Notes: a model not told the origin generated them from the sequence alone. A stretch of DNA of 64,000 nt from a virus (IMGVR_UViG_3300037851_000542:1-64000), one strand, 5' to 3'; counted from the first letter of the stretch, positions 1 to 64,000 are shown. Program-made: numbers and translations.

Positions 1-227
1 TAAAGAACCAGTTTAAATTTAAAATATGACTTACCGGTGTGAATAATGAAGTGGTCAATGTCTGCATTTTCATATGCTTTTGAATTTTTTACCACATCTA
101 GATCAAAGACGGCACTTAATCCAGATTTAAAAATTACTAATATGTAATTATTGTTGTTACTTGCAGTATAATAATGAGAAGTTTCAATACCAGTATCTAA
201 CCTTTTTAGTAAATATTCGCAGCTCAT
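1..227 (-). CDS. small array protein, runs off the window start
   Basis: ATG at 227 overlaps the TGA of the 224..451 ORF (ATGA); open frame MSCEYLLK... to the window edge. Confidence 0.7.
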   Translation of the reverse strand, partial: MSCEYLLKRLDTGIETSHYYTASNNNNYILVIFKSGLSAVFDLDVVKNSKAYENADIDHFIIHTGKSYFKFKLVL

Positions 228-451
228 ATAAAATAAAAAATATCTTTATAATCCCTATGCTGCTTACAGATATTAAATCTTATAAACCTTTTATTCAATG
301 TATAGTAAGTCCTGTTCAATATAAACTCTTTTAAAGAAGTGTAGATCATAGGTTGTAAGTATATATCAACACTTATTGTTTGGTTGATACCTAGAGTTAA
401 AGGTTTTCCCATATTATTTTTATTAGCTATAGCTAAATAGGTATACTTCAC
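224..451 (-). CDS. small array protein with C-terminal tail
   Basis: MKYTYLAI...FYFI*. Confidence 0.8.
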   Translation of the reverse strand: MKYTYLAIANKNNMGKPLTLGINQTISVDIYLQPMIYTSLKEFILNRTYYTLNKRFIRFNICKQHRDYKDIFYFI

Positions 452-458
452 GGTTAAC

Positions 459-707
459 CTAAATTAAATATAATAAATCAGTCTTTAATCTTCCCATAGA
501 AATACCGTCTTTGCCAAATTTATCTGTTAAGGTAAAACCTTGAACATTATGATCTTGGAAGTGATATTCTTTTCTTTTTAAAAATTTAGTTAAGTCATGA
601 TAACGATAAACAGGAAAGTCCCAATACTTAACAAGTAAAAACATTTTGGCAGTAATTTCTACGGGATAGTATAATTCTGTGCCAAAATGATTTTTTGATA
701 ATATCAA
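459..707 (-). CDS. small array protein with C-terminal tail
   Basis: ends LLYLI*. Confidence 0.8.
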   Translation of the reverse strand: MILSKNHFGTELYYPVEITAKMFLLVKYWDFPVYRYHDLTKFLKRKEYHFQDHNVQGFTLTDKFGKDGISMGRLKTDLLYLI

Positions 708-738
708 ATAGTTTCCTTTCCTAGCAAATTTAGTTCTC

Positions 739-993
739 TTAAATTAAATAAAATAAATCCCTAATCTCTTTTCCGTGTCTATGTAAAATAATATTCTCAA
801 AACCAGAGTCAGTTAAATAGTCCGATTGGTATTTTATATACTCCTGTAATGAAATTATTATAGGGGCACAGTTTTTAATAAGTATTGAAACTTTTTGATT
901 TTCTGCTAAGTTATAAATAGCACAGTACGGATCAGTAAGGTTAGGATTATAATAATAACCATTAGGGTAAAAAGCTAAAAACTTATAAACCAT
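739..993 (-). CDS. small array protein with C-terminal tail
   Basis: MVYKFLAF...LFYLI*. Confidence 0.8.
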   Translation of the reverse strand: MVYKFLAFYPNGYYYNPNLTDPYCAIYNLAENQKVSILIKNCAPIIISLQEYIKYQSDYLTDSGFENIILHRHGKEIRDLFYLI

Positions 994-1002
994 TTGTAAG
1001 CT

Positions 1003-1242
1003 TTAAATTAAATAAAATATATCAGTGTAAAAGTCAAAGAAGTAAGGAGGAATATAAAAAGATTTAAAATATTGATTGCTTGTATAAAATTTTTTATTTT
1101 TAATAAAGGTTGGCACTTCTATAATTTTAATTGGATCGTCCACTAAATATATAGCAACTTTGGTATGACAAAGGTCTAGAACGCTATAATCAAAACTATC
1201 ATCTGCTTCGGGGTATTTAGAATTTAACAAAAGATACCTCAT
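1003..1242 (-). CDS. small array protein with C-terminal tail
   Basis: likely start MRYLLL at 1242 (track start overlaps the neighbour); ends IFYLI*. Confidence 0.8.
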   Translation of the reverse strand: MRYLLLNSKYPEADDSFDYSVLDLCHTKVAIYLVDDPIKIIEVPTFIKNKKFYTSNQYFKSFYIPPYFFDFYTDIFYLI

Positions 1243-1246
1243 AGTG

Positions 1247-1474
1247 CTACACGATATAGAAAATTCTCTGAAAAAACAAATATTTAGCATCAATAGTAGC
1301 ATACCTAAAGTCCTTATCTTTAGCAATTTCCGTCTGGTCTCTTATGAACTGAGATAAAGATATTGTTTTAGAACAGTTTTTATAGAAATCAACACTAACC
1401 CTTTGAATCGTGGGAAATTTAATTACCATCGGCGATTTATGATAGATGTCAAACACTAAATAGTCGTAATGCAT
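1247..1474 (-). CDS. small array protein with C-terminal tail
   Basis: MHYDYLVF...IFYIV*. Confidence 0.8.
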   Translation of the reverse strand: MHYDYLVFDIYHKSPMVIKFPTIQRVSVDFYKNCSKTISLSQFIRDQTEIAKDKDFRYATIDAKYLFFQRIFYIV

Positions 1475-1484
1475 AATTAAATAC

Positions 1485-1715
1485 TTATACTAAAATCAGT
1501 ATTACTTCAAACCAGTGCCCGCTTATTGTCGTACCCATTGAGTGAGAATTTTGTTTTCTTAATTGCATTGTATGTTTGTGTAGATTTTTCAAATTAGTTA
1601 TAATTTCGTGTCTTACATAACCTCCTTCGTTAAAAAAAGATATTTTAACTAAAGAGTCAGAAGGAAAAGCCGTTTGCCTCAGTTTGCCAGTTAAAGTGTT
1701 TACTAAGTATTTCAT
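1485..1715 (-). CDS. small array protein with C-terminal tail
   Basis: likely start MKYLV at 1715 (ATGA coupling); ends ILILV*. Confidence 0.8.
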   Translation of the reverse strand: MKYLVNTLTGKLRQTAFPSDSLVKISFFNEGGYVRHEIITNLKNLHKHTMQLRKQNSHSMGTTISGHWFEVILILV

Positions 1716-1954
1716 ATTAATCTCAACCATTTTTCAAAAGTAACACCTTCTTTTTCAATATAAAATTCAACAGCCCCTTTGGACTCTAATTTTGCTAAAT
1801 TAATATAAAGATGTTTCATATCGGTTACGATGCGGGAGGGTTTCGAATTCAGCCAGTTATCTTCAGTGCGATAGTATATATTTATTGAGGAATCTAAATC
1901 ATAGTCCATTATCATCATATACTTAACATACCAGGCTTTTACTAAGTATCTCAT
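1712..1954 (-). CDS. small array protein with C-terminal tail
   Basis: MRYLVK...WLRLI*, ATGA overlaps. Confidence 0.8.
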   Translation of the reverse strand: MRYLVKAWYVKYMMIMDYDLDSSINIYYRTEDNWLNSKPSRIVTDMKHLYINLAKLESKGAVEFYIEKEGVTFEKWLRLI

Positions 1955-2196
1955 ATCAGTATTAGCATAGTTGTGTACCAGTAACCATAGCCGCCAATCT
2001 GTATAACATCTGCTCCATCTATCTTTAATCTCATTAAATGTTTATGTAAGTTGTTCATATTGGTTTTAATTACGTCTTGTTTAAGATCGTCTTTATTACA
2101 AAAAATTATTCTAATTTCCGAGTAATCCGGAAAATTAGTTATTTTTAAACCAAAACCATCGAGAGAGTGTACCCTATGTGTTAAATATCCCCTCAT
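1951..2196 (-). CDS. small array protein with C-terminal tail
   Basis: MRGYLT...MLILI*; resembles 1485..1715. Confidence 0.8.
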   Translation of the reverse strand: MRGYLTHRVHSLDGFGLKITNFPDYSEIRIIFCNKDDLKQDVIKTNMNNLHKHLMRLKIDGADVIQIGGYGYWYTTMLILI

Positions 2197-2411
2197 ATAA
2201 AATAATAAATATTAGTATAAGCGTTCATAGTGTGCTTTAGGACATTTAAATCGCCAAAAGTGTTTTTAAACTCAGTAATTACTCTTTTTGGAGCCCCATC
2301 TCCTACTACATAATAATCTATTGTAACTCGATAAGGCTTGTATATAGAAAATCTAAACTCACAATCAATTACATCCCAGTTATTGTATACACTTTTTCTT
2401 AAATAATACAT
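2193..2411 (-). CDS. small array protein with C-terminal tail
   Basis: MYYLRK...IYYFI*. Confidence 0.8.
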   Translation of the reverse strand: MYYLRKSVYNNWDVIDCEFRFSIYKPYRVTIDYYVVGDGAPKRVITEFKNTFGDLNVLKHTMNAYTNIYYFI

Positions 2412-2412
2412 A

Positions 2413-2634
2413 TTAAACCAAGTAATAAATTGCTCTTACGTGCTTATCTTTTAGTAGTAAACTAATGTTTTTATTTTTGCCGCTCTTAAAAAGGTCTTTT
2501 ATGGTAAAAAATAATTCCCAACCAAAAACTTCCTCTAGATCACTTTCGTCTATTTTAGTATACATTATGATGTGAGCTTCATTTGGAAATTCAATATGTA
2601 TATTAATATGCGTGTAAGCTATGAAGTATTTCAT
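2413..2634 (-). CDS. small array protein with C-terminal tail
   Basis: MKYFIA...IYYLV*. Confidence 0.8.
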   Translation of the reverse strand: MKYFIAYTHINIHIEFPNEAHIIMYTKIDESDLEEVFGWELFFTIKDLFKSGKNKNISLLLKDKHVRAIYYLV

Positions 2635-2831
2635 ACTAGATAATAAATAGATTTTAAAGTTACAGTTCCGGTGTTATAATGGTCAGGTCCAAACATATCC
2701 ATAGCCATTCTGATTTCAGTAATATTCATTGGTTCAGGTAGATCTATTGTATCATACTTTATAGCTGGTTCAATCGGAAGGTCAAACACATCATTATTAT
2801 AAATATAAACTAAAAGATATTTTGTTCTCAT
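2631..2831 (-). CDS. small array protein with C-terminal tail
   Basis: likely start MRTKYLLV at 2831 (TAATG overlap); ends IYYLV*. Confidence 0.75.
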   Translation of the reverse strand: MRTKYLLVYIYNNDVFDLPIEPAIKYDTIDLPEPMNITEIRMAMDMFGPDHYNTGTVTLKSIYYLV

Positions 2832-3058
2832 TAGATTAGGTGATATATGTTTTCCAGTTGCTGAGCTTTGAATGTAAAACACATATCCTTAAATATAATT
2901 CTATGTTGATTTTTGAAATTTACACATTCTTTTGCAGATATAGGCATAGGAAGCTTACCGTACATGTGGCTAAAAAATACATCCCTACCGACGGCGGGAG
3001 AGAACAGAGGGTGCCCTTCTAGTTTCTGAAACCTTACTAAGTATATAGGCTTTTTCAT
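2831..3058 (-). CDS. small array protein with C-terminal tail
   Basis: likely start MKKPIYLV at 3058; ends IYHLI*. Confidence 0.75.
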   Translation of the reverse strand: MKKPIYLVRFQKLEGHPLFSPAVGRDVFFSHMYGKLPMPISAKECVNFKNQHRIIFKDMCFTFKAQQLENIYHLI

Positions 3059-3309
3059 ATTAAATACCAAAGTTTTCTGACATAGTGAGGAAACCAAACT
3101 ATCTTTTCTTTTTTTAAAAAAGTATTCAAGGCACCTATATTGTTAAAATTTAATGATACTGCATTTGAAGGAAGGTCTCCTTCAAAAATATCTATTAAAT
3201 CGTTGCTATCGTAACTTATATACTGTATTTTTATATTATTCTTTGCAAAATCTCCATTAAACATATCCTCACATAATGCAAGGTATTTATACTCAATATT
3301 AGTACTCAT
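3055..3309 (-). CDS. small array protein with C-terminal tail
   Basis: MSTNIEYKYLA...LWYLI*. Confidence 0.8.
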   Translation of the reverse strand: MSTNIEYKYLALCEDMFNGDFAKNNIKIQYISYDSNDLIDIFEGDLPSNAVSLNFNNIGALNTFLKKEKIVWFPHYVRKLWYLI

Positions 3310-3539
3310 ATTAAATGCCACAATTTTACTATTTGACGGTATTTATAGCACACGCAGCTCTTTTTTAAGATAGTATTTAAAGAGGTTATATCAGAGCTAG
3401 GCAAAGCATAACAAGCACAAATAAGCTTTATTTCCTCAGAGCTTACTCTACCTATAAAAGTCTCGCAACCAAGTGCAAGATACGTACTACTCAGGTAACT
3501 GTAATCATTATTACTATTAAATACCTTTTTTATTTTCAT
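3306..3539 (-). CDS. small array protein with C-terminal tail
   Basis: ends KLWHLI*. Confidence 0.75.
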   Translation of the reverse strand: MKIKKVFNSNNDYSYLSSTYLALGCETFIGRVSSEEIKLICACYALPSSDITSLNTILKKSCVCYKYRQIVKLWHLI

Positions 3540-3781
3540 ACCCAGTGCCAGAGTTTTAATGGTATTATAGCTCCTTTATTTGGGCATATTTTTCCATCAA
3601 TAGTTCCCTTTAAAAGAGCTTTTTTAATCCAGTATGCATAAAAGTTACTATTAGGAAACTCTATATCCCACACTAACTGTAAAATAACTTCTACTTCTTT
3701 CTCAGAAAAGAGACCTACATAAGGAGTGGCTGAATTGTCTTCTAAACCTTTACTGGAATTATATAGTAATAAGTATGTCAT
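3536..3781 (-). CDS. small array protein with C-terminal tail
   Basis: MTYLLL...KLWHWV*. Confidence 0.75.
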   Translation of the reverse strand: MTYLLLYNSSKGLEDNSATPYVGLFSEKEVEVILQLVWDIEFPNSNFYAYWIKKALLKGTIDGKICPNKGAIIPLKLWHWV

Positions 3782-4089
3782 TATATTAAATTTATCCTTT
3801 TTAAATCTGTGATTTTAATCCCTCCAAAACGCGCACGGGCATAACTTATTCCCATAGCCCAAGCTAGAGCGGGGTTAGTATCCCTTAGATACTCAAACTC
3901 GTGTTCTTTCGCATTATAATCGAATACACATTTATTGTTTAACTTTTTTTCAAAAACTGCTTTAATTGAAAGGGCATTCGACCTCCTTTTTTTAGGAGTA
4001 TAGTTAAGTTTTAATTCAGGGTGTACATAAATTAACACAGATTGTCCTGTTTCAACATTTAAGGCTATGATATTAGGTGTTGGTTTCAT
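3781..4089 (-). CDS. small array protein with C-terminal tail
   Basis: 102 aa; ends RINLI*. Confidence 0.75.
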   Translation of the reverse strand: MKPTPNIIALNVETGQSVLIYVHPELKLNYTPKKRRSNALSIKAVFEKKLNNKCVFDYNAKEHEFEYLRDTNPALAWAMGISYARARFGGIKITDLKRINLI

Positions 4090-4099
4090 TTTTAACTCT

Positions 4100-4327
4100 T
4101 TAGATTAAGATATTGATTGATTTTATTAATTCCTTCTGCCCTATCCACCATCCACCGTTATCTCTTATAATATATCTTAGCTTTTTAAATTTGTCATAGG
4201 TAAAACCGTTATAGGTAGAATCTCTGTAATATAAATAACTCTGATCTACAATCTTATATCGAATACCTAAAGCATATTTACTTTTTTTAGTGCAAACTAA
4301 ATACTTTTGATTACCTAATCTTTCCAC
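4100..4327 (-). CDS. small array protein with C-terminal tail
   Basis: KYLVC...SINILI*. Confidence 0.8.
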   Translation of the reverse strand: MERLGNQKYLVCTKKSKYALGIRYKIVDQSYLYYRDSTYNGFTYDKFKKLRYIIRDNGGWWIGQKELIKSINILI

Positions 4328-4341
4328 ACCCTGATCTGTTA

Positions 4342-4590
4342 TTAAATTAATATATGAATGGAAATTATAGATTCACCCAGTTGAAAACACCATTGCTCTT
4401 CGTGCTCTTCTAGAATATCTCTGATATGAATGAACTGCTCGTATGAATTACTGTGGTACAAATGGCAATTATCTAGCTCTTTCATAGTTTTAATCTTGTA
4501 TTCGGGGTTACCAGTAACAACACTAAAACAATTACTACTGATCTCTCTTTTGCCAGTAGTACGAATTAAATATTTAAAATTATGACTCAT
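4342..4590 (-). CDS. small array protein with C-terminal tail
   Basis: FKYLIR...SIHILI*. Confidence 0.8.
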   Translation of the reverse strand: MSHNFKYLIRTTGKREISSNCFSVVTGNPEYKIKTMKELDNCHLYHSNSYEQFIHIRDILEEHEEQWCFQLGESIISIHILI

Positions 4591-4593
4591 TTT

Positions 4594-4686
4594 TTATTCA
4601 GCCGTTAAATTAAAAACCCTAAAACTAGGATTAGCGCTATTATAATACCCACCATAAAACACTAGATATTTAACATTAACAGTCAT
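4594..4686 (-). pseudogene. probable truncated array member (30 aa)
   Basis: MTVNVKYLVF...AE*: family N-terminus but no tail. Confidence 0.4.
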
Positions 4687-4708
4687 TATTGTTTTCCGCT
4701 TGTCAACC

Positions 4709-4900
4709 TTAAATTAATATGTAAATAGCTTCTATAGACAACCAATTATGGAAACACCAAATAGTGCCATTTAATGACTTATCTAAACATATTTTGTAAT
4801 GTGCATATAAATCTATAGGATGTGCAATATCGTCCCACATCTCTAATAAACAGTGATGATTAGATCTTGCTTTACACACTAACCACTTACAGTCCCTCAT
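4709..4900 (-). CDS. small array protein with C-terminal tail
   Basis: KWLVC...AIYILI*. Confidence 0.75.
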   Translation of the reverse strand: MRDCKWLVCKARSNHHCLLEMWDDIAHPIDLYAHYKICLDKSLNGTIWCFHNWLSIEAIYILI

Positions 4901-4910
4901 TGCTATTCCC

Positions 4911-5141
4911 TTAAACTAGCATATATACATCTGCGACAGATGTACCGCATGGAAGTACTACATAAACCCCAGTTTTTTCTGTTATTTCTCGATCTTCTCT
5001 AATGTTCTTAATAAACTCTTTAACAGGCACTTCATATTCTCTTTCCAAATAGCTTAAATCTAAGATACGATGACTTCTAGTGTCTCCGCATAGCACTAAC
5101 CACTTACCGTTACTCATGTTTATCTGTTTACCACTACTCAT
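4911..5141 (-). CDS. small array protein with C-terminal tail
   Basis: KWLVLC...VYMLV*; sigma28-type promoter at 5187-5214 upstream. Confidence 0.75.
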   Translation of the reverse strand: MSSGKQINMSNGKWLVLCGDTRSHRILDLSYLEREYEVPVKEFIKNIREDREITEKTGVYVVLPCGTSVADVYMLV

Positions 5142-5283
5142 GTTTACCTGTTTGTTAAACTTTTAAATTTAAATCACTAAAAGTAGTATCGGTATTAAGT
5201 ATAAATAACTTTAACTATAAATGTACCATAGTGACTTTATTTCACGGAGGCTTTAAAATTTTTATAGGGTATACTAATAATCT

Positions 5284-5571
5284 TTAGATTAAATAAAGAA
5301 CATCTGTCCAGTAAAGGTTACACAGGTTAAAATCATCAAAGCTGAAACAAATAAAATTATCAGCTTGTAATTTGGATCGGTTATTAATAAAATAAGTTAA
5401 GTTACTTGACAAGTGAATAACTAAAGCGTCTTTAAAAGTACTGTGTGTTTTATAAAAGTTTACAGGTTCATTATTATCACAGCTTACAGATAAATAACCT
5501 CTATTTTCTTCTGAGTTAAACTTTTTACAGGGGCGCATTAAATAGCTGTATTTATTACCGTATTTATTCAT
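5284..5571 (-). CDS. small array protein with C-terminal tail
   Basis: YSYLMR...VLYLI*. Confidence 0.8.
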   Translation of the reverse strand: MNKYGNKYSYLMRPCKKFNSEENRGYLSVSCDNNEPVNFYKTHSTFKDALVIHLSSNLTYFINNRSKLQADNFICFSFDDFNLCNLYWTDVLYLI

Positions 5572-5579
5572 AAATAATC

Positions 5580-5858
5580 TTAGATTAAATAAAACACATC
5601 TTTATAGTGACCTAATGGTGGTTTATTACTAGTAGCATTATGTAGTCTAAAATGACTAACATGGTCACAATAAATATACTTAGCTTTGTTACTAATTAGC
5701 TCATTAATACTTATGACCTTAGTTGTATTTCTTCCTTGGGCGTCATCATTCTTATAATATCTTGGTATTCTTATCTTTTGCGATGAAGGGAGTAATTCTT
5801 TTACATAGAATGTTTTAATAGTAAAAGTAGTAATAAATAGGTAGTTATATTTAAGCAT
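5580..5858 (-). CDS. small array protein with C-terminal tail
   Basis: YNYLFI...YKDVFYLI*. Confidence 0.8.
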   Translation of the reverse strand: MLKYNYLFITTFTIKTFYVKELLPSSQKIRIPRYYKNDDAQGRNTTKVISINELISNKAKYIYCDHVSHFRLHNATSNKPPLGHYKDVFYLI

Positions 5859-5864
5859 ATTAAA

Positions 5865-6179
5865 TCATATCAGATAATATAATCTGTGGTAAGAATTTTC
5901 TGGTCCGCTGCCGCTAAATCTAAAATATTTAAAGGAATGGTGGTTATAATATTGAATTTTATTATTTAAAAACTCTTCGAAAGTTATTTCAAAATACTCA
6001 ACATAGGGGTAATTCTTTGTATAAATAAGAACAGTTTCTGGCGTTATTAAATCATCTTGATCAAACAAGTTATCTAATATTTTAAGCTTAGTGTACCAAC
6101 TGATATCCTTAAAAGGATCACTATCTTTTTTCCTATAAAATAATAAAAATCTTCCTTTATTGTAATCTATTTTTTTCAT
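5865..6179 (-). CDS. small array protein with C-terminal tail
   Basis: RFLLFY...LYYLI*. Confidence 0.8.
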   Translation of the reverse strand: MKKIDYNKGRFLLFYRKKDSDPFKDISWYTKLKILDNLFDQDDLITPETVLIYTKNYPYVEYFEITFEEFLNNKIQYYNHHSFKYFRFSGSGPENSYHRLYYLI

Positions 6180-6188
6180 AACTCTAAC

Positions 6189-6473
6189 CTAGATAAAGTA
6201 AAATATATTTTCATAGGTAGATAAAGGAGCAGTATGGGCACTATAGGTGCTTGGTTTTATTATAAAATACCTAAACATTGGTACATCTATCAAGCCGCTT
6301 TTATTTTTTAAAAAGTGGTCTATTTGAATTGGCTTCCTAAGGGTATCTATGGATGGAGAAGATGTATATACAATAATTTCTTCTTCGCCGGTTAAGTGTA
6401 GGATCTCTGGAATGTAAGTATTATAACCTGTGTACTCTACTCTAAATAATAAGTATTTACAACTAATAGGCAT
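6189..6473 (-). CDS. small array protein with C-terminal tail
   Basis: KYLLFR...YENIFYFI*. Confidence 0.8.
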   Translation of the reverse strand: MPISCKYLLFRVEYTGYNTYIPEILHLTGEEEIIVYTSSPSIDTLRKPIQIDHFLKNKSGLIDVPMFRYFIIKPSTYSAHTAPLSTYENIFYFI

Positions 6474-6475
6474 AG

Positions 6476-6745
6476 TTAGATAAAGTAAAAAGCATCTTTA
6501 TAATCTGGATCTACTCTGCTAAGGTGTGAGAAATTATTATATATAACTATGAAATATCTAAAGCCTGTATCTGAAGTAATACTATGTTTATTCCTAATAA
6601 ATTTATCTATACTCATTGCCTCAGGAGGTCTACCTCGTCTGTGGACATTAATCTTTTGTGCGCAATTTAGTTCTTTAGCTTTAATTTCTTGAATTCTATA
6701 AGGTCTTCTTATCAATAAGTATTTGCCCATTAAAGTATTATACAT
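6476..6745 (-). CDS. small array protein with C-terminal tail
   Basis: KYLLIR...DPDYKDAFYFI*; start 6745 or 6730. Confidence 0.8.
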   Translation of the reverse strand: MYNTLMGKYLLIRRPYRIQEIKAKELNCAQKINVHRRGRPPEAMSIDKFIRNKHSITSDTGFRYFIVIYNNFSHLSRVDPDYKDAFYFI

Positions 6746-6749
6746 TGTT

Positions 6750-7052
6750 TTAAATAAAATAAAAAGCATCTTTCCAGTACGGAGGATCTGTTTTGAAGTA
6801 AAGAATATGAGACGGATCTAAATCTGCCAGTGTGAAATATTGAAAGTTAAAATTAGGTAAAAGATTTTTTTTTCTAACAAACTCACTAAGCGTCACTGGT
6901 CTTAGAAAGTTTTGTTTATAAACTTTACCTTGTAAGTTTTTAGCATAAAAGTTTATCTTTTGGTCTAAAGGAAAAGAACTGTGAATAGGATCCCAACAGG
7001 GAAAGTCTTCACTCTTAAAGAATAATAAATAACTTTGAGTTTTATTTTCCAT
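6750..7052 (-). CDS. small array protein with C-terminal tail
   Basis: SYLLFF...DPPYWKDAFYFI*; close paralog of 6476. Confidence 0.8.
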   Translation of the reverse strand: MENKTQSYLLFFKSEDFPCWDPIHSSFPLDQKINFYAKNLQGKVYKQNFLRPVTLSEFVRKKNLLPNFNFQYFTLADLDPSHILYFKTDPPYWKDAFYFI

Positions 7053-7054
7053 TC

Positions 7055-7351
7055 TTATATAAAATAAAAAATAGTTTTAAATTTTAGTAATCCATACTCA
7101 TAGAAAAATTCACCTATACTCTTAGATCCAATATTTTTTGGGTCAGTCTCCCCTCCTTTTATATTTCTAAGTAGGTTTATATAACTCATACAATCTTTTA
7201 TTGGTTCTTTTTTTATAAAAACTCGTGGATCGTTTTTTGCCGCATAGAAATAAATATTTAAATCGTCTGATAAATCAACAGGCGTATATTCCCAGTAATT
7301 GCTATACCAACAATAATTTGTATATCTAAATATTAAATATTTATTATTCAT
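7055..7351 (-). CDS. small array protein with C-terminal tail
   Basis: KYLIFR...TIFYFI*. Confidence 0.8.
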   Translation of the reverse strand: MNNKYLIFRYTNYCWYSNYWEYTPVDLSDDLNIYFYAAKNDPRVFIKKEPIKDCMSYINLLRNIKGGETDPKNIGSKSIGEFFYEYGLLKFKTIFYFI

Positions 7352-7360
7352 CTGTAACTG

Positions 7361-7600
7361 TTAAATAAAATAATATAAATACTCATAGCAAAAGCGATCA
7401 CCATCTACCGAAAAAGCTTCTATTTTTAGGTCATTTGGTGGTTTTACGTTTTTAAAATGTTTTATATCTGATTTAATAGATTTCCAATCCCTGTTTAATA
7501 TTAATTCCCTTGGTTCAATATACCAAACTGTAATCTTAGTATTTTCATTTACTACAAATACCGCTTTAAAACTAACGGAGTCAACAGCTAACAATTTCAT
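7361..7600 (-). CDS. small array protein with C-terminal tail
   Basis: MKLLAV...YLYYFI*; paralog of 7605. Confidence 0.8.
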   Translation of the reverse strand: MKLLAVDSVSFKAVFVVNENTKITVWYIEPRELILNRDWKSIKSDIKHFKNVKPPNDLKIEAFSVDGDRFCYEYLYYFI

Positions 7601-7604
7601 ACAT

Positions 7605-7856
7605 TCAAATCAAGTAATAAAGCCCAGAAAAATGAGTTTCATCCTCTGGGACAATGTAAAAACAAGAAAAAGAATCAGCAAAATCTTTTTTTACTTTATT
7701 AAATCTTCTTAAATCTGAGATTACCCACTTGTGCTGAGGATTAGGATAGTCATTAAAACCAAAACCAGTAGAATACCAAACTTTTATTACTGTTTCTTGT
7801 GTAATTTTAACAGAGCAAAATGTTTTACCATCTCCCCTCCTTCCGAGTAATTTCAT
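7605..7856 (-). CDS. small array protein with C-terminal tail
   Basis: MKLLGR...GLYYLI*. Confidence 0.8.
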   Translation of the reverse strand: MKLLGRRGDGKTFCSVKITQETVIKVWYSTGFGFNDYPNPQHKWVISDLRRFNKVKKDFADSFSCFYIVPEDETHFSGLYYLI

Positions 7857-7860
7857 AATT

Positions 7861-8112
7861 TTAAATCAAATAATAGAGCTTATCAAGATTAGGGTTACCA
7901 CAGGATTGTATACTGTGAATCCAAGTTCTACACTTATTCCACTCATCACAGTTTTTTAAATCTATTACTGCTCCTTGTTTAAACGTATAGTAAATGTTGT
8001 GAATTCTTTTGCTATTATCCGTGTATGTAAAGTCTATTGCATTTCTATGTTTAATAAAATCAATTTTTATATCGGGTAGTAATTTATGTTGTTCTTTTGC
8101 TAAATACTGCAT
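7861..8112 (-). CDS. small array protein with C-terminal tail
   Basis: likely start MQYLAK at 8112; ends KLYYLI*. Confidence 0.8.
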   Translation of the reverse strand: MQYLAKEQHKLLPDIKIDFIKHRNAIDFTYTDNSKRIHNIYYTFKQGAVIDLKNCDEWNKCRTWIHSIQSCGNPNLDKLYYLI

Positions 8113-8116
8113 ACAC

Positions 8117-8368: not shown

Positions 8369-8524
8369 ATCTAAGTGTCCCATAGTCAGTTAGATTAATG
8401 CTGCCCCGAATTTTTTTATACTAAACAATACCAGTCTATAATTGTATAAAAAGTGTTAGTGCTCTCTTCTAGAAATCTTACAACCACATTATCATCGGTA
8501 TAAAGTAAAAATAACTTTAGGTTT

Positions 8525-58810: not shown

Positions 58811-59141
58811 TAGAAATTTAATGGACTATACTGAAAAGAAAATATATAAAATAACTGCATCTATAAAAGCCCTTTACTCTGGAGTAGAAATATCTTACCC
58901 TCCTTATGGACACATAGTTATGTTCAAGGAAGGGGAGCCTATTACTACAAACGGTAAGACTTTTGTACTGCACGAAGATACTTTGTTTGTAAAATATATA
59001 AACAAAGAAGGGGAGATTACTTTTTCTAATTTTTATTTATTAAATATAAGTGGGTTCTTTAATTTCTTGGCAGAACTATCAGATCACGAGTTAGCTATTT
59101 ATACGGGACAAGCTATATTAAATACAAACAACTTTAAATAA
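58734..59141 (+). CDS. hypothetical protein
   Basis: real start probably MDYTEKK near 58821. Confidence 0.65.
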   Translation: MTSLKVKLEALIKLILLKSQLLKLTSRNLMDYTEKKIYKITASIKALYSGVEISYPPYGHIVMFKEGEPITTNGKTFVLHEDTLFVKYINKEGEITFSNFYLLNISGFFNFLAELSDHELAIYTGQAILNTNNFK

Positions 59142-59625
59142 CTTTAACTAACCACCAAGTATTGCTATAATCTTTAAAGTTACGTATTATTTTAACCTGT
59201 TTGTTGTTTTTAAGACACATTATATAAAAATCAGCTAAAGGGTTATCTATTTTTTGGTATAACTTCTTTATGTTATATAAAGTCCCATTGCTATAGAGTT
59301 GATAATATTTATATTTTCTTACTATATCTTTATAGTCCCTTATACCTACTTCTAGGTCCCTAAAGGCGGTTTTTATATTTGGTTTTTTTAAAAGCCCCCA
59401 AATTACTTTATACTGACCGGTCGTTCTTAACTGTCTGTGCTTTGATTGGGTCTGTAAATCAAAGTACTCTACTATAACCATATAATTTTTAACATAGATA
59501 CTAATAATATCGTATATTCTGCCACCACTTAAAAAGTAATAATGTTCTGGATCAATGTTATTAAACTGAGATAGATCTCTGGGGTTTAGGTCTGGAGACC
59601 TGCTTAATAATAGATTAAAGTCCAT
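59134..59625 (-). CDS. two-domain small phage protein, tail-like end
   Basis: duplicated YY.L...G..Y.I unit; ends WWLVKVI*. Confidence 0.7.
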   Translation of the reverse strand: MDFNLLLSRSPDLNPRDLSQFNNIDPEHYYFLSGGRIYDIISIYVKNYMVIVEYFDLQTQSKHRQLRTTGQYKVIWGLLKKPNIKTAFRDLEVGIRDYKDIVRKYKYYQLYSNGTLYNIKKLYQKIDNPLADFYIMCLKNNKQVKIIRNFKDYSNTWWLVKVI

Positions 59626-59926: not shown

Positions 59927-60505
59927 TTGGAACAATTTCAAATGGTTAATCCAAATAATTCTAAAATTTTAGTTATTGCAGGTCCTACTGGGTCAGGTAA
60001 AACCACAATTCAGGCTGAATTACTTAAAAGAAATCCTGAATCGCTGTGTAAAATTGTAACTTGCACCAGTAGACCCTTAAGATCCAATGAAAAACAAGGG
60101 GATCCTTATTGTTTTCTTAGCCAATCAGAGTTTGAGGATAAGATAAATAATGGTGAATTTTTAGAATGGGTTAAGTATGATAATAGCTACTATGGTACCC
60201 CTAAAGATGCTTTTTTGGGCTTAATAGCTACTCCAGTAGCTATTATGGACTTAAGAGGTGTTATAGAATTAATTGAATTATACCCTGATCGTACTGAAGG
60301 AATTTTAATTTATGCTGGCTTTGAAACCCTTAAATCTAGGTTAAGTAAAAGAACAGATTCTAGTTATGATAGAGCTTCTTTACTTTTAGCAAACGAGTTA
60401 GAAGAGTTTAAGGAAGTTGAAAATATATTTACTTTGGCTTTTGATAATGATATTTATGATTTAGATCATATTTGCACTTCTATAGAGAAGAAATTTCTTC
60501 TATGA
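59927..60505 (+). CDS. gmk: guanylate kinase
   Basis: VIAGPTGSGKTT, TCTSRPLRSNEKQGDPYCF, FLEWVKYDNSYYGTP. Confidence 0.9.
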   Translation: MEQFQMVNPNNSKILVIAGPTGSGKTTIQAELLKRNPESLCKIVTCTSRPLRSNEKQGDPYCFLSQSEFEDKINNGEFLEWVKYDNSYYGTPKDAFLGLIATPVAIMDLRGVIELIELYPDRTEGILIYAGFETLKSRLSKRTDSSYDRASLLLANELEEFKEVENIFTLAFDNDIYDLDHICTSIEKKFLL

Positions 60506-61218
60506 CCCGATTTAATAACACAAAGTCTTTAACCTATAAAGAATTAGAATACTTATTACAGACTCAGAAATTCTTTAGGGTACTAAACGACAAGAATAAT
60601 AAGACCTATTTTTGTGAAGTAGAGGTAATTGATAATAATATTTGTTGCTTTAATACTGTTTCAAATAGGCTCATTTATAGGTTCCCCAAGGAGGAGCTGG
60701 GTATAAAGTATAAAATAATACCAGACTCTCATTATTTAAATTTTAAAAAAATACAATCTATAGGTGCAAAGGAGCTTACTGAGTTTTTACTAGGAGCAAA
60801 AAGAAAAGGTATTATTCACATCCCTGTAACAATTTATTTTGAGTGCAAGCCAAAGATTTATAACAAATGTGCTTTTCTAGACGTTACATATAGTAGCCTT
60901 ACTGATATAACAGAAGGGGACATTGAGTTAGGATACTTAAGTCCCGATATGACAACTAGACATAATTTAAAATTAGGAGATCTAGGGACAGCTTTTAAAT
61001 TACAAATACCTAAGGATTTTGTATTCTTTTCTACTCTGGCTAGCCGTAATAGTTTGAGAACCGTGAATACATTTTCCTCTGAGGAAAGCAGAAATATACT
61101 TAAGGTTATGTATGATTTAAAGTTCGGATTAAGAGGTTACGTACTAAGTAATATACACAGTGTAAAGTTACCATACTCCTCTAGTAACTATCCTGTAAAA
61201 TTTCTCTATCTGGTTTAG
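60502..61218 (+). CDS. hypothetical protein with tail
   Basis: ATGA-coupled to gmk; ends FLYLV*. Confidence 0.75.
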   Translation: MTRFNNTKSLTYKELEYLLQTQKFFRVLNDKNNKTYFCEVEVIDNNICCFNTVSNRLIYRFPKEELGIKYKIIPDSHYLNFKKIQSIGAKELTEFLLGAKRKGIIHIPVTIYFECKPKIYNKCAFLDVTYSSLTDITEGDIELGYLSPDMTTRHNLKLGDLGTAFKLQIPKDFVFFSTLASRNSLRTVNTFSSEESRNILKVMYDLKFGLRGYVLSNIHSVKLPYSSSNYPVKFLYLV

Positions 61219-61219
61219 A

Positions 61220-61552
61220 ATGCTTACCATAGATCAATTATATAACTACTGGGCGAAGTATCAACACACTACTTTTATAACTTTAAACAATGAAAATAGA
61301 CCTTACAAAGTAAGTTCTAACCCGCTTAGAGCGCCCTGGAAATTTAAATTAAAAGGGCATTGTATTTATATTGAAGAAAGATGTTTTGTTTTTAATAAAA
61401 TAAGGCACAATATGATAGGAAATGCCCTTATAATATTAGATCATAAAACTGAAACAGACTCTATAGAAACAGTGGTTATAAAACTGCCTAGGTTTTATAA
61501 CCAAGATGCTTTAATCACTGATCCTAGGATTAAAAAAATACATTTAATTTAA
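61220..61552 (+). CDS. hypothetical protein with tail
   Basis: ends KIHLI*. Confidence 0.7.
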   Translation: MLTIDQLYNYWAKYQHTTFITLNNENRPYKVSSNPLRAPWKFKLKGHCIYIEERCFVFNKIRHNMIGNALIILDHKTETDSIETVVIKLPRFYNQDALITDPRIKKIHLI

Positions 61553-61857: not shown

Positions 61858-61860
61858 TAG

Positions 61861-62307
61861 TTAGTTTTCTTTATTAAGTGTGCTTTTTAATTTCTTGTAC
61901 TCTGCAAGAGAATCTCTTTTCTTAATTTCTGGAGCGGCTTTAATTTCAACATTACTAGTCTGAACTTCAATATCAAAAATATCGTTTACTTTATTCAACT
62001 CAGAAAGTACACTTCTACTGACACTTAAGGTATTCACATTAGGTTCTTCCGTGAATTCAGGTGTATGAATAGGCTCATCAGAAAAGTATAGGTTTAGTTC
62101 AAAAATTAAAGCATCTTCTGAACTATCAAACCCGATAACTTTATAGCTTTCTATACCTATGTTTTTAGACCTTAATCCTGTGGGTAAGCTGGGCGTAACT
62201 TCTGAGACCAGAAACCGCCTAAAAACGGGGGTTTCTGGTATGAATACTTTTGAAATAGGCACTGTTATAGTTTTTTTCATTTTAAAAAATCCTGTGCTAG
62301 GTTCCAC
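61861..62307 (-). CDS. hypothetical protein
   Basis: start probably MKKT near 62280. Confidence 0.6.
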   Translation of the reverse strand: MEPSTGFFKMKKTITVPISKVFIPETPVFRRFLVSEVTPSLPTGLRSKNIGIESYKVIGFDSSEDALIFELNLYFSDEPIHTPEFTEEPNVNTLSVSRSVLSELNKVNDIFDIEVQTSNVEIKAAPEIKKRDSLAEYKKLKSTLNKEN

Positions 62308-63188
62308 ATATCTACATTAAAGTCTATAACAAAATTTATACCTGTTGGCGTTTTAGGTTTTCTGTATTTTGTCTCATTGTTTTTAACTGTGCCTACTTCA
62401 TAATGAGGTACTAGTAAGTTCTCATGTACCCTATTATACACTTTCCAAAGTCTGTTTCCTTCATCAGCTTCTCTATGTACTTTAAGTACATCTTTTACAT
62501 TTACTACTTTATCAAGAAATCTGAGTTTTATAGCTTTTTCAGCAAACTCTCTTGTTTCAGCACTAGTAAGTATTTTACTATACATTTTATTAATTTGCAA
62601 CTTTAACAGAGGCAAATGTTCAACTAATTCTTGCATAACTTTAGGAAGATACTCGGGTTGATCTGAGTAATGTTTCATTGACCATTTAAAAATACCCCCA
62701 GCAATTACATTATGCAAACTAACTGTTCTAAAAAATCCTAGTTGTAGTGTTTGCTTAGTGGTACCGTCGTGAGCACCTGTCTGAACTATTGTAAGCTTTC
62801 CTTCTCCTTCTAGGTCAAAGCTAGTAGATCCGTGATGATATGTTGCCCTGTATTTTTGAAACCCTACCCTGTGCTGGTTTCTTTTTTGGCGGCGCTGTTC
62901 TTGGTACTGTTGAATCTTCCATCCTCTTGTATTTAGATTTTCAATAACTGAGATATCGTCAGTTTTTCTAAACTTAGAAGTAGTACTTTGTGGATCTCTT
63001 TCAGTAATTATTATGGCGCTTTTTGGTAACAAAATTTCATTGTTTAAGAGGGCTTTAAGTTGTCTTTCAGACAATCTAGATTCTTTTTTTACTGGGACAG
63101 TTGCTATAGAAGGTTGCATAGAAGTTTCCAATATGTTAAAATTAAAAAGTAAAATATCTTCTATTAAGTATATCGACACCGAATACAA
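62277..63188 (-). CDS. DUF932/DUF945-like protein
   Basis: GWKIQ...AHDGTT...LQLGFFRTV...NRLWKVYNRVHENL; real start probably MQPSI about 63116; promoter at 63171-63198. Confidence 0.65.
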   Translation of the reverse strand: MYSVSIYLIEDILLFNFNILETSMQPSIATVPVKKESRLSERQLKALLNNEILLPKSAIIITERDPQSTTSKFRKTDDISVIENLNTRGWKIQQYQEQRRQKRNQHRVGFQKYRATYHHGSTSFDLEGEGKLTIVQTGAHDGTTKQTLQLGFFRTVSLHNVIAGGIFKWSMKHYSDQPEYLPKVMQELVEHLPLLKLQINKMYSKILTSAETREFAEKAIKLRFLDKVVNVKDVLKVHREADEGNRLWKVYNRVHENLLVPHYEVGTVKNNETKYRKPKTPTGINFVIDFNVDMWNLAQDFLK

Positions 63189-63198
63189 ATAACTTTAG
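63171..63198 (-). promoter_or_regulatory. sigma28-type promoter
   Basis: CTAAAG-N16-TCGATA. Confidence 0.7.
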
Positions 63199-63213
63199 AC
63201 TATAATTAACTCC

Positions 63214-63402
63214 ATGTCATATTTTTTTATTTATTTACTAGGTTGCTTTGCTTCTGGTCTGTTAGTACCTTGCACGACAAAGATACTAGAATCTCCACCA
63301 TCGGTACTAGAGTTCATTATTACTATAGTAGCCTCTTGGATAGGTGTTGTGTTACAGATAGGGCTTATTATAGTTTTTATACTGCTTTATTTTTTGACCT
63401 AA
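63214..63402 (+). CDS. small 2-TM membrane protein
   Basis: two hydrophobic segments. Confidence 0.55.
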   Translation: MSYFFIYLLGCFASGLLVPCTTKILESPPSVLEFIITIVASWIGVVLQIGLIIVFILLYFLT

Positions 63403-63406
63403 TCTA

Positions 63407-63628
63407 CTATTCTAATATAATTTCAAATACTAGATTATCCTTTACAATAGAGGATTTTATAGATTTCAGGTTATAGTACCTTTTATAATTTAAAAAAGAC
63501 TTTCCTGCTAAAAATTCTTCTAGTACTTCTTGAGGATCAGTCTTTTTATAATTACAAGGTAGATGCATAAACTCCAACTTAGAGTTTATGTAGAACTTAT
63601 AGTGAATGTCTGAGTCAAAGTTTGTCAT
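63407..63628 (-). CDS. hypothetical protein
   Basis: clean ORF. Confidence 0.65.
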   Translation of the reverse strand: MTNFDSDIHYKFYINSKLEFMHLPCNYKKTDPQEVLEEFLAGKSFLNYKRYYNLKSIKSSIVKDNLVFEIILE

Positions 63629-63632
63629 ATAG

Positions 63633-64000
63633 TTAAATTAAAAATACTCTATCGGGAGCAGTCCATAATCTCTGTTCCTGTGTTAAGGTATAATCCTCAA
63701 ACTTCTCATCGCCTTTAAATAAAAATAGATACTTAAAATCCTTACTGGGGCTGTAAGTGTAAACTTTATTAGTGTCTAAATCGAGGTAATAGGCAAAACG
63801 TTTATTGCTAAACAAATACACATAATTTTCTAATCTAATTTGCCCTACTGCTAAGCGTGGATTCCTATTACTGGTATGGTTTGAATAGGGAATAGGCTGC
63901 CATTTACCTTCTTCAATGTATCTTAAAACCTGTTTAAAAGATAGTGGACCAAAGCTTGACCTTGACCCCCAATAAGAAGTATTTGAACTATAAGTGTGTA
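63633..64000 (-). CDS. 5'-partial protein with tail
   Basis: the frame of the track ORF stays open to the window end (at least 121 aa); ends RVFLI*. Confidence 0.7.
   Translation of the reverse strand, partial: HTYSSNTSYWGSRSSFGPLSFKQVLRYIEEGKWQPIPYSNHTSNRNPRLAVGQIRLENYVYLFSNKRFAYYLDLDTNKVYTYSPSKDFKYLFLFKGDEKFEDYTLTQEQRLWTAPDRVFLI

What the first reader, a model, noticed from the sequence alone, without database searches (positions are those of the whole stretch)
224..64000. A shared C-terminal tag (hydrophobic-Y-L/F-I/V-COOH) on about 55 ORFs, including unrelated folds: candidate undescribed protein-sorting system
Seen: 32 consecutive ORFs at 224-8830 and about 25 more (24661, 24930, 25835, 26257, 28459, 28739, 29086, 29340, 29759, 30793, 31871, 34755, 35256, 35881, 36149, 36450, 37264, 37707, 41577, 42303, 46493, 46744, 59134, 60502, 61220, 63633) end in FYLI/FYFI/YYLI/LYLV/FHFI/FYII-type tetrapeptides, almost always with terminal I or V. 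The motif holds at protein level: codons vary (TTT TAT TTA ATT TAA at 739; TTC TAT ATC GTG TAG at 1247; TAT TAC TTG ATT TGA at 7605; TTC TAC CTG ATT TGA at 26257; CTA TAT CTA ATC TAA at 36149) and all three stops are used. It occurs on both strands and on different folds: small alpha/beta array proteins, all seven tail-bearing ankyrin-type ORFs, and beta proteins at 46493/46744. It is absent from the ~30 cassette genes at 9.1-24.6 kb and from prfA, RuvB, RNA ligase, helicase, SSB and exonuclease. Known: free hydrophobic C-termini are read by PDZ domains (class II, hydrophobic-X-hydrophobic-COOH) and by tail-specific proteases (Tsp/Prc, HtrA). Phages also use short peptide tags to load internal virion proteins (the T4 capsid-targeting sequence is N-terminal). 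Inference: a portable C-terminal address that marks one class of cargo for virion loading and co-ejection, export, docking on a hub protein, or timed degradation.
Basis: partly seen in the sequence, partly recalled or inferred. Interest (0 to 1): 0.92.

Follow-up and report, generated by a model that had tools for sequence, protein, structure and literature searches.

The report
Shared C-terminal tag on phage proteins
About 70 small accessory proteins of an uncultured 260-kb freshwater phage, including several with unrelated folds, all stop on the same five-residue hydrophobic ending (…hydrophobic-Tyr-Leu/Phe-Ile/Val), a selected protein-level label whose reader and purpose are still unknown.

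Summary
The window is the first 64 kb of a 259,994-bp jumbo phage, probably of a Bdellovibrionota host. Of 370 ORFs, 74 end in [Y/H/I..]-[L/F/I]-[I/V]. Sixty-nine of these lie among the 187 accessory genes at the two contig ends, where 4.8 are expected.

- The constraint acts on the protein. Synonymous codons are used freely, and orthologues in related metagenome fragments keep the tail (85% identity) better than the body (60%).
- The motif sits exactly at the free C-terminus, with no shoulder at offsets 1-13.
- Carriers include a clade-restricted alpha/beta family, where the tail is modelled as the last strand. They also include seven ankyrin proteins, which stop right after a repeat's second helix.
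- A DUF7448 protein carries an 11-residue tail that is absent from the other homologues listed.
- Other AT-rich phages and five Bdellovibrionota MAGs, including the likely host lineage, lack the tag.

The function is not shown. The phage encodes an intact ClpP but no PDZ, S41 or Lon domain. My best guess (about 0.3) is a C-terminal turnover tag. Capsid loading, docking on another hub, and a purely structural terminal strand remain open. This scan has noted analogous lineage-specific terminal tags in other huge phages.

The parts
224..8830 (-). Array of 32 consecutive small ORFs (63-107 aa), every one ending in the tag (FYLI, FYFI, YYLI, YYFI, YYLV, LILI, IHILI, WHLI and similar). Most also carry an N-terminal K/R-Y-L-hydrophobic motif.
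   Evidence: Members at 224-1474 and 5284-7351 fall in the 18-member tail-less HMM family. AF2 model of 6192-6473.
24661..25196 (-). Two overlapping tagged ORFs (tails KLVFLI and QWFFFI)
25835..26158 (-). Tagged ORF, 107 aa, tail NYQFLI
26257..26577 (-). Tagged ORF, 106 aa, tail LFFYLI
28453..28999 (+). Two small tagged proteins of the ankyrin BLASTP cluster (tails EFLRII and RFYRII)
29295..29762 (+). Ankyrin-repeat protein, 155 aa, tail RLFNFI
29759..30040 (-). Tagged ORF, 93 aa, tail KLWYFI
30793..31860 (+). Ankyrin protein, 355 aa, with helix-2 motifs recurring at a 30-residue period. The chain stops exactly after the helix-2 motif of the last repeat (IAKYLV-COOH).
31871..32767 (+). Degenerate ankyrin protein, 298 aa, tail RLYYVI
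34755..35087 (+). Ankyrin-type protein, 110 aa, tail FFHFI
35223..35702 (+). Tagged ORF, 159 aa, no family hit, tail KKLHFI
35881..36689 (-). Three consecutive tagged small ORFs (tails FLLYLI, RLLYLI, QVFYLI)
37707..38294 (+). Tagged ORF, 195 aa, tail RKVILV
41577..41969 (+). DUF7448 protein carrying an appended 11-residue tail that ends EFKYII. The other homologues listed lack this tail. AF2 models the tail as coil after the last strand.
42303..42527 (+). Tagged ORF, 74 aa, tail KFSHLI
46493..46998 (+). Two tagged small ORFs (tails SSIILV and FILNLI)
59134..59625 (-). Near-tag ORF, 163 aa, tail WLVKVI.
60472..61552 (+). Two consecutive tagged ORFs (248 aa with tail KFLYLV; 110 aa with tail KKIHLI)
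63633..64000 (-). Tagged ORF that runs past the window end (to 64175 in the genome), tail DRVFLI

Best explanation
Shown: the ending hydrophobic-hydrophobic-[Tyr/His/x]-[Leu/Phe]-[Ile/Val]-COOH is a selected protein-level motif. It is tied to the free C-terminus and carried by about 70 accessory proteins of one jumbo-phage clade, probably infecting a freshwater Bdellovibrionota host.

Inferred: one common partner reads it through the free carboxy-terminus. The mechanism I rank first is a C-terminal turnover tag (degron). A non-polar five-residue C-terminus would hand these accessory proteins to an AAA+ protease, most plausibly a host unfoldase working with the phage's own ClpP. That would limit their lifetime. 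For the binder-like carriers (ankyrins and the hyper-variable small domains), it could drag a bound host protein into the protease with them.

The confidence given is for this mechanism. That the tag is real, protein-level and selected I hold at about 0.9. That a common reader exists at all I hold at about 0.6.
For: Reality and selection of the tag:
- Enrichment is 69 observed against 4.8 expected in accessory genes.
- Codon usage at tag positions is neutral.
- Eight orthologue pairs show tail identity of 34/40 against body identity of 389/643. All six tail changes are conservative, and 10 of 34 identical tail residues use different codons.
- The strict 4-mer sits at offset 0 in 39 proteins, against 6 at offsets 1-13.
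- Terminal Ile outnumbers terminal Leu by 73 to 15.

Portability:
- The DUF7448 tail is present only in this phage's copy and a 78%-identical relative among the 120 listed of 5,076 hits.
- That tail is modelled as coil.
- With tails removed, the bodies show no HMM or HHalign similarity between groups.

Proteolysis lead:
- The phage encodes a full-length ClpP (E = 2.8e-68) with Ser, His and Asp at the conserved triad motifs. It lies outside the head module.
- Transferable three-residue C-terminal Lon degrons (x-[L/I]-[L/I/V]-His) are documented (PMC11986505).
- Non-polar C-terminal pentapeptides as degradation signals for Tsp, ClpXP, ClpAP and FtsH are from my own knowledge (Parsell, Silber and Sauer 1990; Herman 1998).
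- Carriers are non-structural genes. Variants of the TAAAG-N16-CCGATA promoter that precedes replication-type genes also stand before the tagged arrays.
Against: - No degradation was measured.
- In the largest family AF2 makes the tag an integral beta-strand (residues 86-92 of 94). An unfoldase normally needs a free tail.
- The tag does not resemble the tmRNA tags of the host-like MAGs, which end VAA, LAA, IAA and VNA. It also lacks the terminal His of the Lon degron.
- A ClpP gene alone does not link to the tag.
- By this scan's unchecked notes, other huge phages carry different lineage-specific tags. That favours a phage-encoded reader over a conserved host protease.
- Keeping 37% of accessory proteins unstable is not obviously useful.
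Confidence: 0.3

Rival explanations
1. Capsid-loading address. The tail docks the carriers on the inner surface of the procapsid (major capsid protein or scaffold). A diverse set of small anti-host proteins would then be packaged and co-ejected with the DNA, as with T4 internal proteins or encapsulin cargo.
For: - The tag is lineage-specific and absent from the host-like MAGs and from other phages.
- Carriers are small, hyper-variable and slightly basic, at +2.1 against -0.5 net charge per 100 aa.
- They include binder scaffolds (ankyrins) and a DUF7448 fold that weakly resembles a toxin-immunity protein.
- T4 internal-protein genes also lie in hyperplastic, non-structural regions (own knowledge).
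Against: - Seventy or more different cargo species, one of 355 aa, is a lot.
- Tagged operons carry the same TAAAG-N16-CCGATA promoter class as replication genes, not the TATACTATAG-type motif seen before structural genes.
- Neither of the two unannotated proteins encoded next to the capsid gene ends in the tag.
- The known T4 signal is N-terminal and is cleaved off.
Confidence: 0.2
2. Docking on another hub. The tail is a ligand of the class II PDZ type (hydrophobic-x-hydrophobic-COOH), or a comparable beta-augmentation ligand. It would bind one phage or host protein that is neither a protease nor the capsid, for example a scaffold, chaperone, membrane platform or clamp-like ring, and so concentrate the accessory proteins at one site.
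For: - The free C-terminus is strictly required and Ile/Val is preferred over Leu at the last position.
- Tyr at -3 and an aromatic residue at -4 resemble class II PDZ ligands such as EYFI, EYYV and YYKV (own knowledge).
- A hydrophobic five-residue core preceded by Lys also fits DnaK-type binding sites (own knowledge).
Against: - No PDZ domain is found in the phage by three Pfam models at E <= 1, and no S41 or DnaN N-terminal domain either.
- Bacterial PDZ proteins are mostly periplasmic.
- The signal-peptide status of the carriers was not tested.
- No candidate hub was identified.
Confidence: 0.2
3. There is no reader and the ending is structural. Most carriers would be hyper-diverged members of one small alpha/beta framework in which an N-terminal strand (K-Y-L-hydrophobic) and the C-terminal strand (hydrophobic-Y-L-I) clasp the fold. 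The ankyrins simply end after helix 2, whose consensus (V-K-Y-L-V/I) happens to look the same.
For: - AF2 places the tag in strand 5 of a five-stranded sheet.
- An N-terminal [YFW][LF]-hydrophobic motif occurs in 31 of 69 tagged proteins, against 16 of 118 untagged ones (p = 3e-6) and 7 of 69 internal control windows.
- The tag residues (I, V, Y, F) are the best beta-formers.
- Internal ankyrin repeats of 30793-31860 carry VKYLI, VKYLL and VKFLV at the aligned position.
Against: - The DUF7448 tail is appended beyond the conserved domain and is modelled as coil.
- No carrier has any overhang after the motif. A mere last strand would tolerate one.
- Terminal Ile outnumbers Leu 73 to 15.
- With tails removed, no homology is detectable between carrier groups.
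- About 25 tagged proteins lie outside the array, its look-alikes and the ankyrins.
Confidence: 0.18
4. Nucleotide-level artefact. The AT-rich 3' ends would be selected as translation-initiation or coupling regions, or as recombination junctions, for the next gene, and the peptide would be a by-product.
For: - F, Y, L and I have pure A/T codons.
- 42 of 69 tagged genes have the next start within 15 nt.
- Only 20% of tagged genes have an SD-like sequence upstream.
Against: - G/C-containing synonymous codons are not depleted: ATC is 11 against 5.2 expected and CTG is 6 against 2.4.
- 22 of 69 tagged genes have no coupled downstream gene.
- Orthologues change codons but keep residues.
- A-rich residues (K, N) do not share in the motif.
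- Other AT-rich phages lack it.
Confidence: 0.03

Closest known systems
C-terminal degrons of bacterial AAA+ and tail-specific proteases: ssrA ...LAA for ClpXP/ClpAP/FtsH/Tsp; Lon x-[L/I]-[L/I/V]-His degron (PMC11986505); non-polar C-terminal pentapeptides (own knowledge)
   Same: A short, transferable, mostly non-polar motif that must sit at the free C-terminus. The information lies in the last 3-5 residues. A Clp protease subunit is encoded by the phage.
   Different: The sequence is bulky and aromatic, ending Ile/Val rather than Ala-Ala or His. It marks 20% of a viral proteome and is clade-specific. In one carrier family it is modelled as a folded strand rather than a free tail. No degradation has been shown.
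Class II PDZ ligands and PDZ proteases (Prc/Tsp, DegS/DegP; PMC5686067)
   Same: The hydrophobic-x-hydrophobic-COOH pattern with Ile/Val at position 0 and Tyr/Phe at -2/-3. The free carboxylate is essential.
   Different: No PDZ domain is detectable in the phage. Bacterial PDZ proteases act in the periplasm.
T4 capsid-targeting sequence of internal proteins, and encapsulin cargo-loading peptides
   Same: A lineage-specific short peptide shared by otherwise unrelated small proteins of a large phage. Encapsulin signals are C-terminal and bind an HK97-fold shell.
   Different: The T4 signal is N-terminal and removed by the prohead protease. Encapsulin peptides have a different sequence. No virion data exist here, and the promoter class is not that of the structural genes.
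Viral ankyrin proteins with a C-terminal degradation-machinery hook (poxvirus Ank/PRANC F-box; Ank/BC-box proteins binding Cullin-2, PMC6232478)
   Same: An ankyrin binder module combined with a conserved C-terminal element shared across a multigene family of a large virus.
   Different: Those elements are 30-50-residue domains that recruit eukaryotic E3 ligases. Here the element is five residues, in a bacterial virus.
Clamp-binding C-terminal tails (T4 gp43, gp55, gp33; bacterial QL[SD]LF motifs)
   Same: Hydrophobic or aromatic peptides at the extreme C-terminus that several unrelated proteins use to dock on one ring.
   Different: The tag lacks the Gln/acidic context. About 70 carriers is far more than any clamp interactome of a phage. 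No DnaN-type clamp N-terminal domain was found in the phage.

Membership tests
ssrA-like / ClpX C-motif-1 degron | Extreme C-terminus of small aliphatic residues (L-A-A or V-A-A type) resembling the host tmRNA tag | tested here: not met
   The tmRNA tags of four Bdellovibrionota MAGs end PVAA, ALAA, AIAA and VVNA. The phage tag ends Y-L/F-I/V.
ssrA-like / ClpX C-motif-1 degron | Unstructured, accessible tail | tested here: inconclusive
   The DUF7448 tail is modelled as coil, but the tail of the array family is modelled as beta-strand 86-92.
ssrA-like / ClpX C-motif-1 degron | Tag-dependent degradation by ClpXP/ClpAP | not testable with these tools
   This needs half-life assays. Only the presence of an intact phage ClpP was shown.
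Lon C-terminal His degron (PMC11986505) | Invariant terminal His preceded by two hydrophobic residues | tested here: not met
   Only 2 of 370 ORFs end in His. The tag ends Ile (62) or Val (12).
Class II PDZ ligand system | hydrophobic-x-hydrophobic-COOH with a strict free C-terminus | tested here: met
   Position profile and offset analysis.
Class II PDZ ligand system | A PDZ-domain reader in the same system | tested here: not met
   PF13180, PF17820 and PF00595 give no match at E <= 1 in six frames of the phage. Host PDZ proteins were not examined.
T4-type capsid-targeting sequence | N-terminal about 10-residue peptide removed by the prohead protease | tested here: not met
   The tag is C-terminal. 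An N-terminal K-Y-L-hydrophobic motif co-occurs but is modelled as strand 1 of the fold.
Encapsulin-type cargo-loading peptide | C-terminal peptide that binds the interior of an HK97-fold shell | not testable with these tools
   The location matches (C-terminal). Binding to the capsid protein (187495-188565) was not tested.
Ank/PRANC or Ank/BC-box viral adaptor | Ankyrin repeats followed by a 30-50-residue F-box or BC-box-like C-terminal domain | tested here: not met
   The phage ankyrins end directly after helix 2 of the last repeat, and no extra domain is found.

The most novel reading that the evidence does not exclude
A phage-encoded, proteome-scale address system. A five-residue C-terminal label would be read by a dedicated, still unidentified phage component. 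It would either load about 70 fast-evolving anti-host binders into the jumbo capsid for co-injection, or turn those binders into PROTAC-like adaptors that deliver bound host proteins to the phage ClpP. This scan's notes describe different lineage-specific tags in other huge phages. If those hold, this would be one instance of a general, undescribed organising principle of large phage genomes.
Probability: 0.3. Interest if true: 0.9.

Novelty: new variant of a known kind. Interest (0 to 1): 0.74.

Why it matters
A fifth of this phage's genes, nearly all of them orphan genes, share one selected peptide label. Finding its reader would assign a common fate (turnover, packaging or docking) to about 70 proteins at once. 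It would also give a handle on the accessory genes of huge phages. If the label is transferable, it is a ready-made five-residue tool for controlling protein lifetime or loading cargo into capsids. If similar clade-specific labels really recur in other huge phages, the phenomenon is general and has not, to my knowledge, been described.

Tried and rejected
- **Nucleotide-level or AT-bias artefact:** rejected.
- **By-product of translational coupling:** rejected, because 22 of 69 tagged genes have no coupled downstream gene.
- **Mimic of the host ssrA tag:** rejected.
- **Tag used across the host proteome:** the tag-plus-stop DNA pattern shows no excess comparable to the phage's in five Bdellovibrionota MAGs. 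Counts against controls are 6 vs 3, 2 vs 1, 10 vs 0, 21 vs 16 and 0 vs 1.
- **Phage tmRNA or tRNA:** ARAGORN finds none.
- **PDZ (three models), S41, Lon_C and DnaN N-terminal domain in the phage:** none found.
- **Rfam on the window:** no match.
- **Fold searches of the array-family model:** nothing significant in PDB Foldseek, VIA wide, AFDB clusters or BFVD; best Z is 4.4.
- **Homodimer prediction of the array protein** (complex prediction): no verdict, so it is not used as evidence.
- **Exhaustive profile search of 1.84 billion proteins with the family:** only this phage and close relatives were found, so no distant homologues were available to test for overhangs. P0140 is spurious.
- **Relatives through the RuvB-like gene and the helicase in IMG/VR:** none.
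- **Alignment A3:** not searchable.
- **RtcB loci:** these are unrelated phages and served only as a null.
- **Capsid-gene relatives (L012, L018):** these are structural-region fragments without tags.
- **PHROG scan of ten tagged singletons:** no hits.
- **Sequencing runs:** only two freshwater metagenome DNA runs hold the stretch, and no RNA holder is listed.
- **Sigma-70 scan:** uninformative in this AT-rich DNA.
- **Literature searches:** no description of such a tag was found.
- a mistyped request.

Full report
**What the DNA is.** The window is the first 64 kb of a single 259,994-bp virus record with 33% G+C. CheckV estimates it as 95% complete. It encodes a large terminase, a major head protein and ribonucleotide reductase. 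It has no close cultured relative.

Its prfA is 89% identical at the protein level to the prfA next to groES/groEL on a contig of a Lake Mendota Bdellovibrionota MAG. The next-best hits, at 59-63% identity, are also Bdellovibrionota-type MAGs. The host is therefore probably a freshwater member of that phylum. Only freshwater metagenome runs hold the DNA.

**Checking the observation.** All 32 consecutive minus-strand ORFs at 224-8830 end in the motif, as do about 22 further ORFs in the window.

- In a greedy set of 370 ORFs for the whole genome, 74 end in [YFHWILNRMV][LFIWVM][IV] and 47 in the strict form [YHF][LFI][IV]. The internal frequencies of these patterns are 1.7% and 0.34%.
- Shuffling residues within each protein gives 8.8 +/- 2.9 and 1.5 +/- 1.2.
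- The carriers cluster at the two contig ends, 0-64 kb and 238-258 kb, which form one region if the genome is circularly permuted. There, 69 of 187 genes are tagged against 4.8 expected.
- In that region Ile is the last residue of 73 proteins (39%; background 8%) and Leu of only 15. Tyr holds position -3 in 45.
- The 183 core genes are at background.
- Spurious ORFs of the same DNA carry the tag at 5% (loose) and 1.6% (strict).
- Eighty 20-kb flanks of other phages, many equally AT-rich, are at background.

**Protein or nucleotide constraint.**

- Synonymous codons at the five tag positions follow genome usage. G/C-containing codons are not avoided: ATC occurs 11 times against 5.2 expected, and CTG 6 times against 2.4.
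- Three short metagenome contigs carry syntenic orthologues. Over eight pairs the bodies are 60% identical (389/643) and the last five residues 85% (34/40).
- All six tail replacements are conservative: F/L, H/Y, M/L and I/V. Ten of the 34 identical tail residues use different codons.
- Twenty-two of 69 tagged genes have no coupled downstream gene. The tail is therefore not a by-product of a downstream initiation region.
- The strict four-residue motif ends exactly at the C-terminus in 39 proteins. It ends at offsets 1-13 in six proteins in total, against a background of 0.0007 per position. The free carboxy-terminus is part of what is selected.

**Who carries it.** BLASTP leaves 63 of the 74 carriers as singletons.

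- With the last six residues removed, an iterated HMM gathers 18 proteins, all tagged, into one family. Its layout is K-Y-L-L-F ... E-F-I-R-N-K ... F-R-Y-F ... D-x-F-Y-L-I.
- Profile-profile comparison finds nothing between this family and the neighbouring groups of the array.
- The family is confined to this phage clade. An exhaustive HMM search of 1.84 billion representatives returns only the phage's own proteins and close relatives.
- AF2 on window 6192-6473 with 25 paralogues and orthologues gives a mean pLDDT of 78.8. The model has five strands and a helix, and the tag forms the last strand, residues 86-92. No known fold matches.
- Tagged proteins are also enriched for an N-terminal [YFW][LF]-hydrophobic motif: 31 of 69 against 16 of 118 untagged and 7 of 69 internal control windows. 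This motif is strand 1 in the model.

So for many small carriers the two conserved ends look like a structural clasp. Part of the excess is a framework feature.

**Evidence that it is more than a framework.**

- Five carriers score as ankyrin repeats in Pfam, and seven fall into one BLASTP cluster. In the 355-residue protein at 30793-31860 the helix-2 motifs recur at a 30-residue period. The chain stops exactly after the helix-2 motif of the last repeat (I-A-K-Y-L-V-COOH), where internal repeats continue E-x-G-A-D.
- The one untagged ankyrin paralogue (253040-253492) runs on past the equivalent point.
- The clearest case is the DUF7448 protein at 41577-41969. Of 5,076 homologues, 120 were listed and their C-termini examined. 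Those printed end soon after the conserved S-N-G-Y-Y-S-E-x-V-x-F with assorted polar tails. Only this copy and a 78%-identical metagenome relative carry the extension ending E-F-K-Y-I-I.
- AF2 with 120 sequences (pLDDT 85.8) ends the domain at strand 118-122 and leaves the tail as coil.

The same pentapeptide therefore appears as a strand, as the end of a helix and as a free tail.

**Where it is not.** The tag-plus-stop DNA pattern shows no excess comparable to the phage's in five Bdellovibrionota MAGs (one gives 10 against 0). The same holds for a complete but distant relative and for the structural-region fragments of closer relatives. The tmRNA tags of the host-like MAGs end VAA, LAA, IAA and VNA. 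The phage has no tmRNA or tRNA gene.

**Candidate readers.** The phage has no PDZ domain by three models and no S41, Lon or DnaN N-terminal domain. It does encode a full-length ClpP at 135445-135987 (E = 2.8e-68). Ser, His and Asp stand at the conserved triad motifs. The gene lies away from the head module.

The TAAAG-N16-CCGATA promoter class stands before nearly every untagged cassette gene at 9-25 kb and before replication-type genes. Slightly degenerate copies also precede the tagged arrays. A different motif, TATACTATAG-like, precedes structural genes. This places the carriers with the non-structural programme, but the timing is not shown.

**Interpretation.** I hold at about 0.9 that the tag is a real, selected, C-terminus-dependent protein motif. 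I hold at about 0.6 that a common reader exists. I rank the mechanisms as follows.

- **Turnover tag feeding an AAA+ protease with the phage ClpP: 0.3.** It rests on the ClpP gene, on documented short transferable C-terminal degrons (PMC11986505) and, from my own knowledge, on non-polar C-terminal pentapeptides as degradation signals. It is weakened by the folded-strand model and by the lack of likeness to ssrA.
- **Capsid-loading address: 0.2.**
- **Docking on another hub, such as a PDZ-like or chaperone-like reader: 0.2.**
- **Purely structural clasp with no reader: about 0.18.**
- **Nucleotide artefact: 0.03.**

**Context.** This scan's earlier, unchecked notes report the same tag at the other end of this genome. 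They also report different lineage-specific terminal tags on small proteins of other huge phages. I did not test those. They nudged me towards a phage-encoded reader.

**Comparison and novelty.** The nearest known things are C-terminal degrons, class II PDZ ligands, T4 and encapsulin targeting peptides, and viral ankyrin proteins with a C-terminal hook to degradation machinery (PMC6232478). The tag fails the sequence or architecture criteria of each (see the membership test). It may still work like one of them. I found no description of such a proteome-wide tag in phages. I class it as a new variant of a known kind: a short C-terminal linear signal. The more radical reading is given under the novel case.

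Noticed in passing
window 9100-24650 (minus strand): About 30 untagged 'cassette' genes. Nearly every one has its own TAAAG-N16-CCGATA promoter-like site and a good Shine-Dalgarno sequence. Upstream lie a conserved element (…GGGGCAA-TAAGAAAAA-ACCTAGA…) and clusters of the palindrome AGCTTTATATAAAGCT. This organisation is quite different from the tightly coupled, SD-poor tagged arrays.
   Followed up: partly
window 42822-43907: The phage prfA (RF1) is 89% identical to the prfA beside groES/groEL on a Lake Mendota Bdellovibrionota MAG contig (L023). It sits in a locally G+C-richer stretch (0.39). This points to a recent host-to-phage transfer and a host assignment.
   Followed up: partly
genome 135445-135987 (L116:1498-2097, minus strand): Full-length ClpP with the conserved Ser, His and Asp motifs, about half identical to solved cellular ClpPs. 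It has a short insertion before the conserved ATD motif. It lies next to a PIN/PhoH-like ATPase and outside the head module.
   Followed up: partly
whole genome: ARAGORN finds no tRNA or tmRNA gene in this 260-kb phage.
   Followed up: no
whole genome: Tagged genes avoid TAG stops (6 of 74 against 81 of 296, p = 3e-4) and favour TGA (19 of 74 against 36 of 296). I attribute the TGA excess partly to ATGA start/stop overlaps, but did not count them. The phage encodes its own RF1, which reads TAA and TAG.
   Followed up: no
window 25630-28060, 30180-30650, 8377-9040, 5223-5236: Repeats of (G)TCACTATGGGA(T/C) occur in unusually long non-coding gaps (1.6 kb at 26578-28180; 0.75 kb at 30041-30792) and upstream of array segments. 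A related TATACTATAG motif lies 30-80 nt upstream of many structural-region genes and is a candidate late promoter.
   Followed up: partly
window 38824-40449; genome 82652-83128 and 239176-240312: Three TnpB/IS605 OrfB-type genes, one of them a fragment, in the phage genome.
   Followed up: no
window 41577-41969: The DUF7448 model's best PDB match is chains D and E of entry 8owu, a polymorphic-toxin PT7 / immunity PIM7 complex (Foldseek probability 1.0, but TM only 0.44-0.50). By their size I take these chains to be the immunity protein. This is a weak hint that the widespread phage domain is a toxin or defence binder.
   Followed up: no
window 57488-58228: An RNase T-type exonuclease carries a C-terminal TAP_C (UBA-like) domain hit (E = 1.7e-6), which is unusual for a phage.
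   Followed up: no
L113:1276-1563: In a related phage fragment, a paralogue of the gene next to it stops early and lacks the tagged C-terminus. It is possibly a decaying copy.
   Followed up: no
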